Assembly (NCBI GenBank): GCA_025360565.1
Contig: JANYBY010000119.1
Coordinates: 15,610-79,609 of the forward strand
DNA: 64,000 nucleotides
Origin: Bacteroidota bacterium
Lineage (GTDB): Bacteria > Bacteroidota > Bacteroidia > B-17B0 > Aurantibacillaceae
Reading direction: 5' to 3'
In this document: positions 692 to 4,824 of the stretch, piece by piece
How the letters are laid out: every line of letters starts with the position of its first letter
Numbering within the stretch: the first letter of the stretch is position 1
Made by a program: the position numbers and the translations under genes
The notes under the pieces: model-generated
The model's input: only the letters and a program-made list of their open reading frames with translations
Databases searched by the model: none
What the model was told of the DNA's origin: nothing

Positions 692-2383
692 ATGCAGCGA
701 CATTTTGTAAAACCCGATTTTAATGTAACAACGTGGGAATTATTAAAACCGTATTTTGATGAACTTGAATCCCGAAAAATTAATTCAATTGCCGATCTTG
801 AAAAATGGCTCAAGGATAGTTCTGAACTTGGCGCTGTTGTAAGCGAAAATATGGCCTGGCGCTATATTAAAATGACCTGCGATACTGCGAACGCAGAATT
901 GAGAAATAGCTTTAATGATTTTGTGCAGAACATTGAGCCACAAATGGCACCTATAGGGAATGAACTGAACAAAAAATTAATTGGTACTCCGTTTACTTCT
1001 CAACTTACTAAACAAGGATACGATATTTATTTACGTTCGGTAAAAAACGCTATTGAATTATTCCGCGAAAAAAACATTCCGCTTAATACGCAGTTGCAGG
1101 AATTAGAACAGCAATTCGGCGAAATTAACGGCGCACAAAGTATTGAGTACAACGGCGAAAAAATAACCATGCAAAAAGCCTCTGTTTATTTAAAAGACCT
1201 GAACCGAAAAGTGCGCGAAGAAGTATATTATAAAATTCAGGAGAGAAGAGGGCAGGACGAAAACGCGCTGAATGAGCTGTTCACCAAATTAATTCAACTG
1301 CGCCAACAGGTTGCAGTGAACACAGGTTTTAAAAATTACCGCGATTACAAACATCAGTCACTTGGCCGTTTTGATTATACGGTGCAGGATTGTTTAAATT
1401 TTCATGAATCGGTAAAACAACATGCGGTGCCTTTAATTATTGAACACGATAAAAAGCGTAAACAAAAATTAAAACTGGAAGATTACCGTCCTTGGGATAC
1501 CGCGGTGGATGAAGAAGGCAAGCCGCCTTTAAAACCGTTTGCAAGTGCACAAGAGTTAATTGAAAAAACAATTACCTGTTTTAATAAGATAGATCCGTTT
1601 TTTGGCGAGTGCATTAAAACCATGCAAAAGCTTAACCGTCTCGATCTGGAAAGCAGAATTGGCAAGGCTCCCGGCGGCTATCAATATCCGCTGTACGAAA
1701 CCGATGTGCCTTTTATTTTTATGAACTCGGTAGGTTTGCACCGCGATCTGGTTACTATGGTACATGAAGGAGGTCACGCAATACATTCTTTTTTAGATAA
1801 AGATCTTGACCTGGTTGAATTTAAGTCGCCCACCAGCGAAGTGGCCGAATTGGCCAGCATGAGCATGGAATTGATAAGCATGGAACACTGGGATATTTTT
1901 TTTACTGACAAAGAAGAATTAAAACGCGCCAAACGCCAACAGCTGGAAGGAGTGATAGATGCTTTGCCATGGATAGCCGCGGTAGATAAATTTCAGCACC
2001 TGCTTTATTTAAAACCTGAACACACTGTTGCAGAACGTTATGAGATGTGGAACGGATTGATGAAAGATTTTGGAAGTCCTGTAATAAATAATGCAGGACT
2101 AGAAAATTTTGTGAACCGCCGTTGGCAGGTGCAATTGCATTTATACGAAGTGCCATTTTATTATATTGAATATGGTTTTGCACAGCTGGGTGCTATTGCC
2201 ATGTGGCGCCAGTACAAAAAAGATCCAAAACAAGCCATAACAAATTATAAAAAAGCACTTGGGCTGGGTTACACAAAAAGTATTCCTGAAATTTACGAGG
2301 CCGCCGGAATTAAATTTGATTTCAGTCCGGCTTACGTAAAAGAGTTAATGAATTTTGTGAAGGAAGAGTATGAGAAGGTTTGA
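692..2383 (+). CDS. pepF: M3 family oligoendopeptidase F
   Basis: HEGGH zinc motif, downstream E in 'SEVAELASM', and 'HLYEVPFYYIEYG' motif; 563 aa. Confidence 0.9.
   Translation: MQRHFVKPDFNVTTWELLKPYFDELESRKINSIADLEKWLKDSSELGAVVSENMAWRYIKMTCDTANAELRNSFNDFVQNIEPQMAPIGNELNKKLIGTPFTSQLTKQGYDIYLRSVKNAIELFREKNIPLNTQLQELEQQFGEINGAQSIEYNGEKITMQKASVYLKDLNRKVREEVYYKIQERRGQDENALNELFTKLIQLRQQVAVNTGFKNYRDYKHQSLGRFDYTVQDCLNFHESVKQHAVPLIIEHDKKRKQKLKLEDYRPWDTAVDEEGKPPLKPFASAQELIEKTITCFNKIDPFFGECIKTMQKLNRLDLESRIGKAPGGYQYPLYETDVPFIFMNSVGLHRDLVTMVHEGGHAIHSFLDKDLDLVEFKSPTSEVAELASMSMELISMEHWDIFFTDKEELKRAKRQQLEGVIDALPWIAAVDKFQHLLYLKPEHTVAERYEMWNGLMKDFGSPVINNAGLENFVNRRWQVQLHLYEVPFYYIEYGFAQLGAIAMWRQYKKDPKQAITNYKKALGLGYTKSIPEIYEAAGIKFDFSPAYVKELMNFVKEEYEKV
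2303..2383 (+). repeat. Direct repeat copy 1 (last 27 codons of pepF)
   Basis: 81 nt; 73/81 identical to 3338-3418 by manual alignment. Confidence 0.95.
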
Positions 2384-2565
2384 AAAGTGAAGTTGGGGAA
2401 TGAGAGTAATCGAAGAACCATTATGCCGTGCAAGACCGATAGGTTTTCTCGCTGAGGCGCTGCAGACAAGTAGGGAAGAGGTTTTTATAGCGGTTGATGG
2501 TAAAGCTTAGGGGTTAACATTGGAACAAATTTCCTATTCCAACACTTTTTTCGTATCTTTAAAAT

Positions 2566-3093
2566 ATGGACGCGAAAGCAAAATACCATCTTGGCATTGA
2601 AATTGACCGGCTGACAAATAGCATTTTAAATTGCATTTCCGGCGACAGCTTTCCGACCGACGTTCACGTTCTTAGTAAGAGCGACCTTAAGCACATTAAT
2701 AAAAAAAATGCCTGGCTTTTCAATTGGGCGGCCGAAAACAAACTCTCCGACAGGCAGATTTATAAACTAACAATTAGAAATAATCCTGAAATTATTCAAG
2801 GATTAGCGAGTATTAGTGATTTTAACGATCATTATTATTTACATCTTATCGAAAGTGCACCGTTTAATCTTGGGAGAAACAAGCTTTACGAAGGGGTTCC
2901 GGGGAATCTGTTCGCTTTCGCTTGCAAAATATCATGGGATAAAGGCTACCAAGGTTTTATTTCTTTTAGATCCAAAACAAAACTAATTCAACATTATGAA
3001 ATGACCTTAGGAGCAACACATGTAGGTGAGCACAATATGGTGATTTTCCCACATGAAGCGCTAAAACTAATCAAGAAATATTTTCCAACTTAA
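2566..3093 (+). CDS. Hypothetical GNAT-fold-like protein (candidate toxin)
   Basis: 175-aa ORF. 'YLHLIESAPFN.G..KLYEGVPGNLFAFAC..S...G..GFISF.SKT.LI.HY...LGA' resembles the acetyl-CoA-binding region of GNAT proteins. TATCTTTA box at 2554-2561. Confidence 0.6.
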   Translation: MDAKAKYHLGIEIDRLTNSILNCISGDSFPTDVHVLSKSDLKHINKKNAWLFNWAAENKLSDRQIYKLTIRNNPEIIQGLASISDFNDHYYLHLIESAPFNLGRNKLYEGVPGNLFAFACKISWDKGYQGFISFRSKTKLIQHYEMTLGATHVGEHNMVIFPHEALKLIKKYFPT

Positions 3094-3106
3094 ATAAACT
3101 ATTATC

Positions 3107-3280
3107 ATGGGGCACATTAAAGAACCAAAAGGAGTAGATTTTACAGTAGATCCAACGCCATTAACTGACGAGGAAAAGAAGAGAATAAGTGAAATAATTG
3201 CTTACTACAAAGCCACAGGCCGAAAAAAAGTATTTAATAAGGCCTCTCAACAAAAGACTCGCAAACGTTCAGCAGCATAA
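3107..3280 (+). CDS. Small basic hypothetical protein, 57 aa (candidate antitoxin/partner); absent from the supplied ORF track
   Basis: ATG 3107 to TAA 3280, 13 nt after the previous stop. Translation MGHIKEPKGVDFTVDPTPLTDEEKKRISEIIAYYKATGRKKVFNKASQQKTRKRSAA. Confidence 0.75.
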   Translation: MGHIKEPKGVDFTVDPTPLTDEEKKRISEIIAYYKATGRKKVFNKASQQKTRKRSAA

Positions 3281-3337
3281 GCATAGATGCCCGGAAAAGG
3301 CAGCCATTTTTTAGCAAACTTATCTGCCTTCAATGGC

Positions 3338-3418
3338 GCCGGAATTAAATTTGATTTCAGTCCTGCCAATGTAAAAGAGTTAATGGATTTTGTGAAGGCG
3401 GAGTATGAGAAGGTTTAA
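3338..3418 (+). repeat. Direct repeat copy 2 (orphan pepF 3' end)
   Basis: Encodes AGIKFDFSPANVKELMDFVKAEYEKV* versus pepF AGIKFDFSPAYVKELMNFVKEEYEKV*. Confidence 0.95.
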
Positions 3419-3431
3419 CAATAGCTAAAAA

Positions 3432-3513
3432 GTCATCCCGAGGAACGAGGGATCTGTTCTCTTTCGAAAAAGCCTTTCCCCCTAACAGACACTTCGCTAC
3501 CGCTCAGTATGGC
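3432..3513. repeat. Degenerate REP-like inverted repeat
   Basis: GTCATCCCGAGGAACGAGGGATCTG ... CAGACACTTCGCTACCGCTCAGTATGGC resembles GTCAT...ATGAC-type REP doublets. Confidence 0.55.
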
Positions 3514-3521
3514 GTGAAACT

Positions 3522-4022
3522 TTGAAAATGAAAACAAAAGCAATACATATTTTTTTATTTTTCGTAATTATTGCTTTAACAACCTGCAAAAAATATCCTG
3601 AAAATACTTTGTGGTTTACAAACTTTAGCAAAATAAAATTTTTAGACAATGTTCATTTGACAGCCTTTACTGTAAACGGTATTGATAGTTTACAATCACT
3701 AAAAGTTTTTTTTGGATCGCGCAGTGGCTACAAAGATATCAGCCAGGTTTACATTGAAGAAACTTATGATTCGCATTATGGCAATACAGTTGGTGTTTTT
3801 CATGTGCCATATGAGCATATTATTTTGGGCTATAGTTTTTCTAAAAACAAGAAAAACATTTCATTTGGCTTTGTAACACAAGACACCTCAATATTAAAGA
3901 GAAACCTATTTATTGACAATAATCAATGGCAGATAATTAAACTTGATCTCAAGACTGGGACACGAAAAATTAAAAAAACCGTGAATGGCAATACTTACGA
4001 ATTGCAGTTTGAGAAGTTGTGA
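3522..4022 (+). CDS. Hypothetical lipoprotein
   Basis: Hydrophobic N-terminus with lipobox-like 'ALTTC' followed by KK; no family recognised. Confidence 0.7.
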   Translation: MKMKTKAIHIFLFFVIIALTTCKKYPENTLWFTNFSKIKFLDNVHLTAFTVNGIDSLQSLKVFFGSRSGYKDISQVYIEETYDSHYGNTVGVFHVPYEHIILGYSFSKNKKNISFGFVTQDTSILKRNLFIDNNQWQIIKLDLKTGTRKIKKTVNGNTYELQFEKL

Positions 4023-4032
4023 CCGAAATGTG

Positions 4033-4140
4033 GCTTAGGGATGCGAAAGGTTTAGCTCTTTTTGTTCCGCCATTTTCGGCGGACAAAAAAGCCGAAGCGA
4101 AGCGGAGCCTGAAGCAGCCCGGGCCGCAGGCAAGCCCCAA
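4033..4140 (-). other. GC-rich structured repeat-like or ncRNA-like element downstream of ftsE
   Basis: Hairpin TTTTTGTTCCGCC (4059-4071) / GGCGGACAAAAAA (4078-4090) inside a GC-rich segment that starts TTGGGGC and ends ATCCCTAAGC on the - strand. Confidence 0.4.
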
Positions 4141-4155
4141 ATTTCTTTATCCAAA

Positions 4156-4824
4156 TCAATTCGTTTCCGTCACCTTTGCATCCTCAAAAGTAAGTGTGCG
4201 CGATTTGTACTTATTATAAACCATCATATCATGTGTAGCGAGCAGTACGGCCCTTCCGCTTTCGCTCAATTGTTTCAGCAATTTTAAAATTTCTTCCGAT
4301 GTTTCAGGGTCTAAGTTGCCGGTGGGCTCATCGGCCAAAATAATTTCAGGATCGTTTACCAAAGCACGCGCAATGCTTACGCGTTGCTGTTCACCGCCCG
4401 AGAGCTCGTGGGGCATTTTATTTTCTTTCCCTTCTAAACTTACTTTTTTTAATACGTCAATTACCCGTTCTTTTATTTTAGCTTCTTCGCCCCAGCCGGT
4501 GGCTTTCATCACAAATCTTAAATTTTCATAAACGCTCCGGTCACTCAGCAATTGAAAATCCTGAAATACAATGCCGAGTTTACGCCTTAAATACGGTATT
4601 TGCGCCGCTTTTAAATTATTTAAGCTGTAGCCGCAAACAATTCCTGTGCCCGAATTAAGCGGCAGATCGCCGTAAATTGTTTTTAAAAAACTGCTTTTGC
4701 CGCTGCCTGTTTTACCAAGCAGGTAAAGGAACTCGCCCTTTTTTATTTCAACATTTAAACCGCCAACAACCGGGCGCTCCTCCTGAAAAATAGTTACGTT
4801 ATCAAATTTTATAAGGGTGGACAT
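4156..4824 (-). CDS. ftsE: Cell division ABC ATPase FtsE
   Basis: Walker A GKTGSGKS, 'IPYLRRKLGIVFQDFQLL', signature LSGGEQQR, and LADEPTGNLD. Confidence 0.9.
   Translation of the reverse strand: MSTLIKFDNVTIFQEERPVVGGLNVEIKKGEFLYLLGKTGSGKSSFLKTIYGDLPLNSGTGIVCGYSLNNLKAAQIPYLRRKLGIVFQDFQLLSDRSVYENLRFVMKATGWGEEAKIKERVIDVLKKVSLEGKENKMPHELSGGEQQRVSIARALVNDPEIILADEPTGNLDPETSEEILKLLKQLSESGRAVLLATHDMMVYNKYKSRTLTFEDAKVTETN

What the first reader, a model, noticed from the sequence alone, without database searches (positions are those of the whole stretch)
2303..3418. Two-gene cassette bracketed by a duplicated, diverged pepF 3' end
The last 81 nt of pepF (2303-2383) recur 1035 bp downstream (3338-3418) with 8 substitutions. 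The reading frame and a stop (TGA vs TAA) are kept, and only 3 of 26 residues change. This pattern fits a donor fragment carrying a relative's pepF 3' end recombining into the gene, restoring it and leaving the other end as a scar. No integrase or transposase is present, so this would be a minimal or decayed island, or a cassette moved in trans or by homologous recombination. Which copy is resident and which is donor-derived cannot be told from this window.
Basis: partly seen in the sequence, partly recalled or inferred. Interest (0 to 1): 0.68.

Follow-up and report, generated by a model that had tools for sequence, protein, structure and literature searches.

The report
Gene-end relic beside inserted toxin cassette
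A 950-base toxin-plus-immunity gene pair with no mobility gene sits just after a peptidase gene in this Bacteroidota genome, and a decaying second copy of the gene's last 27 codons was left behind; this kind of scar is already known, and the same cassette family shows it at other genes in other genomes.

Summary
An 85-nt direct repeat (2302-2386 and 3337-3421, 89% identical, only two copies in the genome) brackets a 950-bp insert. Copy 1 is the working 3' end of an M3 oligoendopeptidase ('pepF'). Copy 2 is a relic.

None of 75 other species of the genus, and none of 80 metagenome pepF loci, has the cassette or a second pepF end. In several species pepF and ftsE abut stop to stop, which is the empty site.

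The insert carries a 175-aa protein with a GNAT-like fold and a 57-aa partner, a very widespread Bacteroidota pair. The 175-aa domain also occurs on the C-termini of phage MuF-type proteins, so the pair is probably toxin plus immunity.

I found no integrase, transposase, terminal inverted repeats or attC in the insert.

The pattern recurs. 15 of 65 loci of this cassette have bracketing repeats, against 0 of 116 shifted controls. Four of them duplicate a neighbouring gene's 3' end. In this genome the PaaB end is duplicated around an IS200-like gene.

This matches the published class 'insertion with long target duplication' (PMC2853133). This scan has already noted the same scar on other DNA (CPR bacteria, DPANN archaea).

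I favour import of a relative's pepF end, but not decisively; in-situ duplication stays open.

The parts
692..2383 (+). M3 family oligoendopeptidase gene ('pepF'), 563 aa, intact
   Evidence: TIGR02289 at 551.6 bits (cut-off 442) and Pfam Peptidase_M3. Full-length matches to residues 1-563 in same-genus relatives.
2302..2386 (+). Repeat copy 1: the working last 27 codons of pepF, the TGA stop and 3 further nt
2387..2528 (.). Left filler of the insert (142 nt). It is not shared with other copies of the cassette and shows no significant fold.
   Evidence: Cassette homology with other loci starts at 2529-2547. Fold z-scores are +1.1 and +0.3. No Rfam match.
2529..2565 (+). Conserved cassette leader with a Bacteroidetes-type -7 box (TATCTTTA at 2554-2561, 5 nt before the ATG)
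   Evidence: Conserved with L026, L027 and L002 from 2529. The same GTATCTTTG motif lies before gene A in 15 other loci. Promoter function is inferred.
2566..3093 (+). Gene A, 175 aa: uncharacterised protein with a GNAT-like fold, probable toxin
   Evidence: No hit in Pfam, NCBIfam or PADLOC. 7987 homologues among the 8000 candidates scored; the 120 best listed are 75-88% identical. AlphaFold2 model pLDDT 70.6; best Foldseek hits are GNAT acetyltransferases, probability up to 0.96, TM 0.42-0.49. The domain is fused C-terminally to MuF / minor capsid protein 2 in other proteins.
3107..3280 (+). Gene B, 57 aa with a basic tail: probable immunity protein or antitoxin
   Evidence: Found directly after A in 79 of 80 loci. 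No family hit. The function is inferred.
3283..3336 (.). Right filler of the insert (54 nt), not shared with other cassette copies
3337..3421 (+). Repeat copy 2: relic of the pepF end, frame and TAA stop kept. It carries Y->N at a residue that is Tyr in all 26 relatives inspected.
3426..3459 (.). Short multi-copy REP-like element (GTCATCCCGAGGAACGAGGGATC)
   Evidence: 24-30-nt matches at 93-100% identity on several contigs of relatives.
3522..4022 (+). 166-aa lipoprotein-like gene, a further lineage-specific occupant of the pepF-ftsE interval
   Evidence: No counterpart in the pepF loci of relatives. The signal peptide and lipobox are read from the sequence.
4024..4142 (.). Multi-copy intergenic repeat of the genus
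   Evidence: Dozens of matches at 72-94% identity in this genome and in relatives.
4156..4824 (-). ftsE (ABC ATPase), convergent with pepF. In empty-site relatives its stop abuts the pepF stop.

Best explanation
A 950-bp piece of foreign DNA (2387-3336) entered the convergent pepF/ftsE junction without any dedicated recombinase. It carries a self-promoted toxin-plus-immunity pair: A with a GNAT-like fold, and the small partner B.

The most likely route is that the cassette arrived on DNA from a closely related, unsampled lineage in which it already lay just after the pepF stop codon.
- On the left, the incoming DNA recombined homologously inside pepF. The working gene end (copy 1) is therefore the donor's.
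- On the right there was no homology, because this interval differs between species. The far end of the DNA joined illegitimately 85 nt upstream of the resident stop codon.
- The resident gene end (copy 2) was thereby pushed downstream as a functionless relic, which has since begun to decay (Tyr->Asn).

This geometry is homology-facilitated illegitimate recombination. A Campbell-type single crossover of a small circle carrying 'pepF end + cassette' gives the same product.

The toxin-immunity pair then favours its own retention.

Shown: the insertion, the empty site, the relic, the lack of mobility genes and of defined ends, and recurrence at other gene ends.

Inferred: the donor origin of copy 1, the recombination route, and the toxin and immunity functions.
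For: 1. Insertion and empty site. pepF and ftsE are convergent in relatives and abut stop to stop in L005, L011, L018, L020 and L021. The interval holds different small genes in other species, so a donor would often share no right-hand homology. None of 75 other species of the genus has the cassette at pepF, and no duplicated pepF end was found in the 18 same-genus pepF loci checked. None of 80 metagenome pepF loci has the cassette.

2. No recombinase and no defined ends. The insert has no family hits. No integron integrase scores over the cut-off, and no tyrosine-recombinase match lies on contig C308. Inverted-repeat scores at the insert ends are at null level in all 10 loci tested. The fillers around the cassette core differ in length and sequence between loci.

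3. The repeat ends where similarity between orthologues ends. It ends 3 nt after the stop in the window, at the stop in C384 and in L060, and 15 nt after it in L036, where the orthologues of G087 and G088 also stay similar for about 15 nt. In L033 the 52 nt after the stop differ at 15%, against 5% in the coding part.

4. Both variants look like working alleles. The residues that differ, other than Y->N, are MNFVKEEY in copy 1 and MDFVKAEY in copy 2. Both occur in intact orthologues (L151 and L165).

5. Differences between working and relic copies favour third codon positions: 36 of 65 over six loci. This is more than neutral decay of a relic alone would give.

6. In L060 the relic is closer to the sister species G055 (137/146) than the working copy is (133/146). 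The working copy has 7 unique changes and the relic 3.

7. Two unlinked cases in this genome have nearly the same divergence: 9.9% at the pepF end and 9.2% at the PaaB end. This fits one donor lineage.

8. Recurrence. 15 of 65 loci of this cassette have bracketing repeats of at least 50 nt, against 0 of 56 and 0 of 60 shifted controls. Four of them duplicate the 3' end of a neighbouring gene: GH5 cellulase, ExbD, a membrane protein, and a DUF255 protein.
Against: - Copies 1 and 2 are more alike (90%) than either is to any sampled relative (at most 85%). Both end in Val (GTT), where every relative compared has Ile or another ending. A donor would therefore have to be a close lineage that has not been sampled. 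Simple in-place duplication explains this equally well.
- Polarisation is contradictory. L036 shows 3 changes unique to the relic and 0 unique to the working copy.
- In the window, the sites that can be clearly polarised are 1 against 1.
- The third-position share (55%) lies between the rough expectations for the two models, about 44% and about 80%.
- No donor arrangement (pepF, then cassette, with no relic) was found anywhere.
- Identity along the gene in L060 shows no block that looks imported.
- Whether this organism takes up DNA is unknown.
Confidence: 0.45

Rival explanations
1. In-place long target duplication. The cassette was inserted at a staggered break or by template switching during replication. 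This duplicated 85 nt of the recipient's own pepF end at the moment of insertion. The two copies then diverged by about 10%, with the relic evolving freely and the working copy under selection. This is the reading given in the literature for restriction-modification units ('insertion with long target duplication').
For: - The two copies are each other's closest relatives and share derived states.
- The relic has a change at a Tyr that is otherwise invariant.
- L036 shows more unique changes in the relic.
- There is published precedent with near-identical repeats of 46-423 bp, some overlapping gene 3' ends, and no mobility genes (PMC2853133).
- The nearest sampled species is only 78-79% identical in pepF, so there has been ample time for 10% divergence.
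- Short-read metagenome assembly would break at young, identical repeats, which would bias the sample towards old ones (inference).
Against: - The repeat boundary falls 0-3 nt after the stop codon in the three loci where the working copy lies upstream of the insert (window, C384, L060), although 18 to about 490 nt of non-coding DNA were available. A random staggered cut would not be expected to do this.
- In L060 the working copy carries more unique changes than the relic (7 against 3), and the relic is nearer to the sister species.
- There is a third-position excess among the differences.
- Two unlinked cases in this genome have equal divergence.
Confidence: 0.3
2. Site-specific integration of a minimal satellite element that carries its own copy of the pepF end, like e14 or phage 21 in icd of E. 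coli. A recombinase encoded elsewhere would move it in trans. The crossover would lie in the 26 identical bases at the left of the repeat.
For: - The anatomy is the same as icd ... e14 ... icdC: working end, element, then C-terminal pseudogene (PMC13626634).
- The first 26 nt of the repeat are identical.
- The repeat ends at the stop codon.
- The genome has several tyrosine recombinases on other contigs.
Against: - There is no recombinase in or beside the unit, nor on the 88-kb contig.
- Independent insertions of the same cassette sit at unrelated targets (pepF, GH5, ExbD, DUF255 and a membrane protein). They share no end sequences or inverted repeats, and their repeats run from 76 to 211 nt.
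- The other cases have no identical core at the left edge of the repeat: mismatches occur at position 3 in C384 and in L060.
Confidence: 0.08
3. An integron-type gene cassette placed at a secondary (non-attC) site by an integron integrase. The duplication would be a by-product.
For: - In other genomes the same cassette sits in arrays separated by 110-195-nt imperfect palindromes that begin (T)AAC and end GTT(A). One of two tested folds as a long hairpin, z = -3.3.
- A diverged second copy of the cassette in this genome (contig C423) lies between such repeats.
- The left filler contains GGTTAACATTGG, which resembles the start of those repeats.
Against: - There is no foldable attC-like element at either end of the window's insert.
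- No integron integrase scores over the model cut-off in the genome, which is 92% complete.
- Integron recombination is not known to duplicate 85 nt of target (background knowledge).
- That the repeats are attC sites is my inference; it was not tested with an attC model.
Confidence: 0.05
4. Assembly artefact: a chimeric join of two strains in a metagenome-assembled genome produced the second pepF end.
For: The genome is a MAG of 433 contigs with 3.5% contamination. Reads could not be inspected.
Against: - The copies differ at 8 of 81 bases and share at most 26 exact bases.
- The relic abuts non-pepF sequence on its left, so a truncated pepF end must exist in real DNA.
- The same architecture is seen in independent assemblies, including long contigs, and at a second locus of this genome.
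Confidence: 0.03

Closest known systems
Insertion with long (and variable) target duplication of restriction-modification gene complexes (Nobusato et al. 2000, cited as ref. 37 in Furuta, Abe and Kobayashi 2010, PMC2853133)
   Same: - A small selfish ('addiction') gene unit, absent from related genomes.
- Flanked by direct repeats longer than 30 bp that correspond to a single-copy target sequence, some overlapping a gene's 3' end.
- No transposase or integrase, and the repeat is unique in the genome.
- The mechanism is unresolved.
   Different: - The cargo here is a GNAT-like toxin with a small partner, not a nuclease and methylase pair. The authors' suggestion that the unit's own DNA breakage drives insertion cannot apply.
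- The host is a Bacteroidota MAG.
- The copies are 10% diverged and the repeat stops at the stop codon, which I read as a hint of donor origin.
e14 / phage 21 integration into icd of E. coli (icd ... prophage ... icdC pseudogene)
   Same: The working gene end lies next to the element. A diverged C-terminal fragment pseudogene is left at the far side. The differences between the two are conservative (PMC13626634).
   Different: e14 is a 15-kb prophage with its own integrase and a fixed attachment site. Here the unit is 950 bp with no recombinase, and the cassette family sits at many unrelated gene ends without shared termini.
Homology-facilitated illegitimate recombination in naturally transformable bacteria, and displacement arrays of orphan toxin-immunity modules at Rhs/CDI/T6SS loci (background knowledge, not checked in papers here)
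   Same: There is one homologous anchor and one illegitimate joint. An incoming gene tip plus cassette displaces the resident tip downstream as a relic.
   Different: This route has not been shown for this organism. The displaced gene is a housekeeping peptidase, not the toxin gene itself.
IS1634 / IS1549 insertion sequences, which make long variable direct repeats of 8-514 bp (PMC2266710)
   Same: Long target duplications of variable length, with no accepted mechanism.
   Different: Those are insertion sequences with a DDE transposase and terminal repeats. No transposase or terminal inverted repeat is present here.
MuF-type polymorphic toxins of temperate phages and their immunity genes; GNAT toxins of the TacT/AtaT type
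   Same: The A domain occurs at the C-terminus of MuF / minor-capsid-2 proteins and has a GNAT-like predicted fold. A small gene follows it.
   Different: A is a stand-alone protein with no Pfam acetyltransferase match. The partner gene lies downstream and is not an RHH antitoxin. Neither activity nor toxicity has been tested.

Membership tests
Insertion with long target duplication (Nobusato 2000; Furuta 2010) | The inserted unit is absent from related genomes whose flanks are conserved | tested here: met
   pepF and ftsE are present and convergent in relatives. No cassette lies at pepF in 75 species of the genus or in 80 metagenome loci.
Insertion with long target duplication (Nobusato 2000; Furuta 2010) | Flanking direct repeats longer than 30 bp that align with a single-copy sequence in the empty genome | tested here: met
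   The 85-nt repeat corresponds to the single pepF 3' end of every relative compared.
Insertion with long target duplication (Nobusato 2000; Furuta 2010) | No mobility-related gene in the insert, and the repeat is not a multi-copy element | tested here: met
   The repeat has exactly two copies in the genome.
Insertion with long target duplication (Nobusato 2000; Furuta 2010) | The cargo is a restriction-modification system | tested here: not met
   The cargo is a GNAT-like protein plus a 57-aa protein, with no restriction-modification, Pfam, NCBIfam or PADLOC hit.
Insertion with long target duplication (Nobusato 2000; Furuta 2010) | Both repeat copies derive from the recipient's own target (a true duplication) | tested here: inconclusive
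   The copies are nearest to each other, but polarity tests conflict, and the repeat boundary at the stop codon suggests a donor origin.
Integrase-borne element with gene-end replacement (e14/icd type) | The element encodes, or is moved by, a site-specific recombinase | tested here: not met
   None in the insert or on the contig. Action in trans cannot be tested with these tools.
Integrase-borne element with gene-end replacement (e14/icd type) | A working gene end plus a C-terminal pseudogene relic flank the element | tested here: met
Integrase-borne element with gene-end replacement (e14/icd type) | Fixed attachment site and conserved element ends across insertions | tested here: not met
   The targets differ and the ends are not shared.
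Integron gene cassette | An attC recombination site at the 3' end of the cassette | tested here: not met
   Neither 3281-3340 nor 2387-2530 shows a significant hairpin. No attC covariance model was available, so this test is weak.
Integron gene cassette | An integron integrase (IntI) in the genome | tested here: not met
   The best TIGR02249 match is 113.8 + 87.5 bits in two pieces that lack model positions 178-239; the cut-off is 265 bits. The genome is 92% complete.
GNAT toxin-antitoxin modules (TacT/AtaT/KacT type) | A GNAT acetyltransferase fold with an acetyl-CoA site | tested here: inconclusive
   The model has pLDDT 70.6. The best hits are GNATs, but with E = 0.03 and TM below 0.5. There is no Pfam acetyltransferase hit.
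GNAT toxin-antitoxin modules (TacT/AtaT/KacT type) | An upstream RHH-type antitoxin gene | tested here: not met
   The small gene lies downstream and matches no family.
MuF-type polymorphic toxin C-terminal domain with immunity gene | The domain is found fused to the C-terminus of MuF / SPP1 gp7-like head proteins | tested here: met
   P0200, P0207, P0218 and P0250 carry Phage_min_cap2; P0204, P0228, P0240 and P0243 carry Phage_Mu_F. In each the A domain is at the C-terminus.
MuF-type polymorphic toxin C-terminal domain with immunity gene | Toxicity that is neutralised by the downstream gene product | not testable with these tools
   This needs expression of A with and without B in a laboratory strain.

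The most novel reading that the evidence does not exclude
Small addiction modules (toxin-immunity pairs, toxin-antitoxin pairs, restriction-modification units, even IS200-like genes) may share a general way of spreading that needs no recombinase and is guided by homology. They would travel with the last codons of whatever gene they sit behind, and use that gene end as a portable homology arm to enter the same gene in a new host. The resident end is displaced each time. If so, gene 3' ends would serve as attachment sites supplied by the cargo's previous host, in Bacteroidota as well as in the CPR bacteria and DPANN archaea where this scan saw the same scars.
Probability: 0.15. Interest if true: 0.8.

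Novelty: new member of a known kind. Interest (0 to 1): 0.45.

Why it matters
- It gives a clean, datable example of how a bacterium gains an accessory gene pair with no mobile-element machinery and without damaging the housekeeping gene next to it.
- Together with four parallel cases of the same cassette, and a second case in the same genome, it extends 'insertion with long target duplication' from restriction-modification units to a toxin-immunity family in Bacteroidota.
- The published idea that the cargo's own DNA cutting drives the event therefore cannot be general.
- It flags a very widespread, strongly conserved and uncharacterised GNAT-like toxin family: 7987 homologues were scored, the 120 best listed are 75-88% identical to this protein, and the 80 genome loci fetched span several orders of Bacteroidota. 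The family appears as a free cassette, in arrays that look like integrons, inside a composite transposon, and on phage MuF proteins.
- For annotation, short ORFs such as 3287-3418 are relics of gene ends, not genes.

Tried and rejected
- Exact-pattern scans for either pepF end found nothing in genome contigs or metagenome contigs.
- A protein-guided scan of metagenomes gave 80 pepF loci. The nearest is 83% identical in amino acids, and none has the cassette or the Val ending. No conspecific reference exists, so the two copies could not be polarised in the window.
- Rfam search and terminator scan of 2200-4300 found nothing.
- Terminal inverted repeats at the insert ends, tested in 10 loci, scored at null level. 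A MITE or a transposon moved in trans is rejected.
- attC-like hairpins in the window's fillers were not found.
- Integron integrase: only XerC/D-like matches below the cut-off.
- PDB sequence search, PADLOC and PHROGs gave nothing meaningful for A or B.
- A sliding identity profile of the L060 gene against its sister species showed no imported block.
- A genome-wide search for more gene-end duplications in this assembly found only pepF and PaaB. The other candidates were tandem paralogues, terminators or multi-copy repeats.
- The closest cassette in the genus (G123, L146) has no flanking repeat.


Full report
OBSERVATION

The window holds one outstanding direct repeat: 2302-2386 and 3337-3421, 85 nt, 89% identical, 1035 nt apart. 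A self-comparison of the whole 3.6-Mb assembly finds exactly two copies of this sequence.

Copy 1 is the true 3' end of ORF 692-2383. This is a 563-aa M3 oligoendopeptidase that passes NCBIfam TIGR02289 ('M3_not_pepF') but not the pepF equivalog model.

Copy 2 keeps the reading frame and a stop codon (TAA instead of TGA). It differs at 3 of 26 residues.

Between the copies lie two intact genes: A (2566-3093, 175 aa) and B (3107-3280, 57 aa).

IS IT AN INSERTION?

The window lies on an 88-kb contig of a metagenome-assembled genome (433 contigs, 92% complete).

In the pepF loci fetched from same-genus species (18 loci), pepF matches over its full length in all but one locus, which is cut by a contig end. 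In many of these species it is convergent with ftsE. In L005, L011, L018, L020 and L021 the two stop codons abut or overlap, which is an empty site.

Other species hold different small genes in this interval: lipoprotein-like genes, and in G019 a 'mobile mystery protein A/B'-like pair. It is therefore an insertion hot spot.

No duplicated pepF end occurs in any fetched relative. A search of all 75 other species held for the genus found the cassette in four of them (G123, G024, G112, G005), always on a contig other than the one carrying pepF. Eighty pepF loci from metagenomes, at most 83% identical in amino acids, also lack the cassette.

In this genome the 1772-nt interval between the pepF and ftsE stops also contains a REP-like element, a 166-aa lipoprotein-like gene and a multi-copy repeat.

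THE CARGO

A and B match nothing in Pfam, NCBIfam, PADLOC or the PDB by sequence.

A has 7987 homologues among the 8000 candidates scored; the 120 best listed are 75-88% identical, and the named ones are Bacteroidota. In 79 of 80 fetched genome loci A is followed directly by a B homologue.

An AlphaFold2 model of A (pLDDT 70.6) finds GNAT acetyltransferases as its best structural matches. The match is weak: probability up to 0.96, E = 0.03, TM 0.42-0.49.

More distant relatives carry the A domain at the C-terminus of phage MuF or minor-capsid-2 proteins. That is the known position of the toxin domains of MuF polymorphic toxins (paper listed, not read). I therefore read A and B as a toxin with its immunity protein or antitoxin. 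This is an inference.

DNA conserved with other copies of the cassette spans only 2529-3282. It includes a Bacteroidetes-type promoter box just before A. The 142 nt to its left and the 54 nt to its right are specific to this locus.

NO MOBILITY MACHINERY, NO DEFINED ENDS

Nothing in the insert, or anywhere on the contig, matches a tyrosine recombinase. The best integron-integrase-model match in the genome is a XerC/D-like 384-aa protein, well below the cut-off.

The ends of the insert carry no inverted repeats, here or in nine comparable loci. The window's fillers do not fold as attC-like hairpins. Rfam finds nothing.

THE PATTERN RECURS

In 65 loci of this cassette with enough flanking sequence, 15 have a direct repeat of at least 50 nt immediately bracketing the pair. 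In controls shifted by 2 kb the counts are 0 of 56 and 0 of 60. The repeats are of two kinds.

(i) Multi-copy imperfect palindromes of 110-195 nt. They begin (T)AAC and end GTT(A), and they separate successive small cassettes (L035, L039, L044, L055, L081, L100, and this genome's second, diverged cassette on contig C423). These look like integron-type arrays; that is my inference.

(ii) Locus-specific duplications of the neighbour's 3' end:
- a GH5 cellulase (L033, 211 nt, 92%);
- ExbD (L036, 200 nt, 94.5%);
- a membrane protein (L060, 146 nt, 93%);
- a DUF255 thioredoxin-domain protein (L106, 111 nt, 78%).

In every one of these the copy joined to the gene body is intact. The other copy is a relic beyond the cassette. 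The orientation of the cassette relative to the gene varies.

In L071 the pair sits between two 1.7-kb copies of an IS1182-like element.

In this genome a second, unrelated case exists. The last 76 nt of paaB recur 1315 nt downstream (7 substitutions, frame and stop kept) around an IS200-like Y1 transposase gene. No relative in the genus shares this.

WHICH MECHANISM?

Three geometries give this scar:
(a) in-place duplication of the target at insertion;
(b) import of 'gene end + cassette' from a relative, with a homologous crossover in the gene and an illegitimate joint upstream of the resident stop (or a single crossover of a circle);
(c) site-specific integration of an element that carries a gene end.

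Geometry (c) fits poorly. The targets are unrelated, the repeats run from 76 to 211 nt, no ends are shared and no recombinase is present.

Between (a) and (b) the data are mixed.

For (a):
- The two pepF ends are closer to each other (90%) than to any sampled relative (at most 85%), and they share the Val ending.
- The relic has lost a Tyr that is otherwise invariant.
- In L036 the relic has 3 unique changes and the working copy 0.

For (b):
- The repeat ends 0-3 nt after the stop codon in the window, in C384 and in L060, although 18 to about 490 nt of non-coding DNA followed. In L036 it runs on only as far as the orthologues themselves stay similar.
- In L033 the part after the stop is three times more diverged than the coding part.
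- Differences favour third codon positions: 36 of 65.
- Both residue variants occur in intact orthologues.
- In L060 the relic is nearer to the sister species than the working copy is, and the working copy has 7 unique changes against 3 for the relic.
- The two cases in this genome have almost the same divergence: 9.9% and 9.2%.
- The variable content of the interval means a donor would often lack right-hand homology.

I put (b) at about 0.45, (a) at 0.30, (c) at 0.08, an integron-integrase secondary-site event at 0.05 and an assembly artefact at 0.03.

COMPARISON WITH WHAT IS KNOWN

The structure meets the operational definition of 'insertion with long target duplication', described for restriction-modification units by Nobusato et al. 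(2000) and Furuta et al. (2010). I read the latter (PMC2853133). It describes repeats of 46-423 bp, some overlapping gene 3' ends, with no mobility genes and an unknown mechanism. The difference here is the cargo.

The layout is also that of icd ... e14 ... icdC in E. coli (PMC13626634), but without a prophage or an integrase.

Long variable duplications are also made by IS1634 and IS1549 (PMC2266710). Those are insertion sequences with a transposase, which is absent here.

Earlier notes of this scan describe the same gene-end relics beside toxin-antitoxin cassettes in CPR bacteria and DPANN archaea. They pointed me to the Nobusato and Furuta papers. Other notes had seen this GNAT-like pair in other genomes.

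VERDICT

This is a real insertion scar of a kind that is already known, made without a recombinase. I classify it as a new member of a known kind.

The new elements are:
- the host phylum;
- the cargo, a very widespread and uncharacterised toxin-immunity family;
- the statistical link between this cassette and bracketing repeats;
- the hint, from repeat boundaries at stop codons, that the working gene end may be imported.

The test that would settle it could not be run: reads from the source sample, or a conspecific genome.

Noticed in passing
L138 1597-2987 (= G000 contig C384 9096-10486; outside the window): A second gene-end relic in the same genome. The last 76 nt of paaB, including the stop, recur 1315 nt downstream (7 substitutions, 5 of 7 differing codons synonymous, TGA against TAG). 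They flank an IS200-like Y1 transposase gene. No relative in the genus has this.
   Followed up: partly
L002 1-3468 (= G000 contig C423 17447-20914): A diverged second A-B cassette (59% amino-acid identity) lies next to recA. It sits in a row of small lipoprotein-like genes separated by three copies of a 46-76-nt repeat that resembles the attC-like palindromes flanking the cassette in other genomes. This may be a small integron-like array without an integrase.
   Followed up: partly
L035, L039, L100 (cassette at about 4001-4700 in each): In Ferruginibacter and other Chitinophagaceae genomes the cassette sits in arrays with many copies of 190-nt imperfect palindromes (TAAC ... GTTA) spaced 0.7-1 kb apart. 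These look like chromosomal integron or CALIN arrays in Bacteroidota. No attC model was run.
   Followed up: partly
L071 604-4967: The A-B pair lies between two direct 1.7-kb copies (96.8% identical) of an IS1182-like element, which gives a structure like a composite transposon.
   Followed up: no
G045 contig C29 208440-210625, compared with L060 and L106: In G045 the membrane-protein gene of L060 and the DUF255 gene of L106 are convergent and only about 3 nt apart. In L106 both genes still flank the insertions, and the DUF255 end is the one duplicated. In L060 the membrane-protein end is duplicated, and the DUF255 gene is not seen within about 3.4 kb downstream. The same gene neighbourhood thus seems to have been hit in two species, with different gene ends duplicated.
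   Followed up: partly
L019 2186-3270 (G019, directly after its pepF): A 168-aa and a 195-aa gene that look like the 'mobile mystery protein A/B' (XRE/Fic-like) pair occupy the pepF-downstream hot spot in another species. No duplicated pepF end was found within 1.5 kb.
   Followed up: partly
L023 2980-4280 (G005 contig C131): A remnant with B only (gene A lost) lies between 65-nt direct repeats and is followed by a complete cassette of the second type. This suggests tandem stacking and decay of these cassettes, next to a UvrD-like helicase gene.
   Followed up: no
G000 contig C175 836-1334: A GIY-YIG nuclease-like gene lies between two copies of what looks like a tRNA gene 3' part on the minus strand. 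One copy has an extra 13-nt hairpin.
   Followed up: no
window 3287-3418: The 43-aa ORF that a gene caller might report here is the pepF-end relic read through from an upstream ATG. It should not be annotated as a gene.
   Followed up: yes
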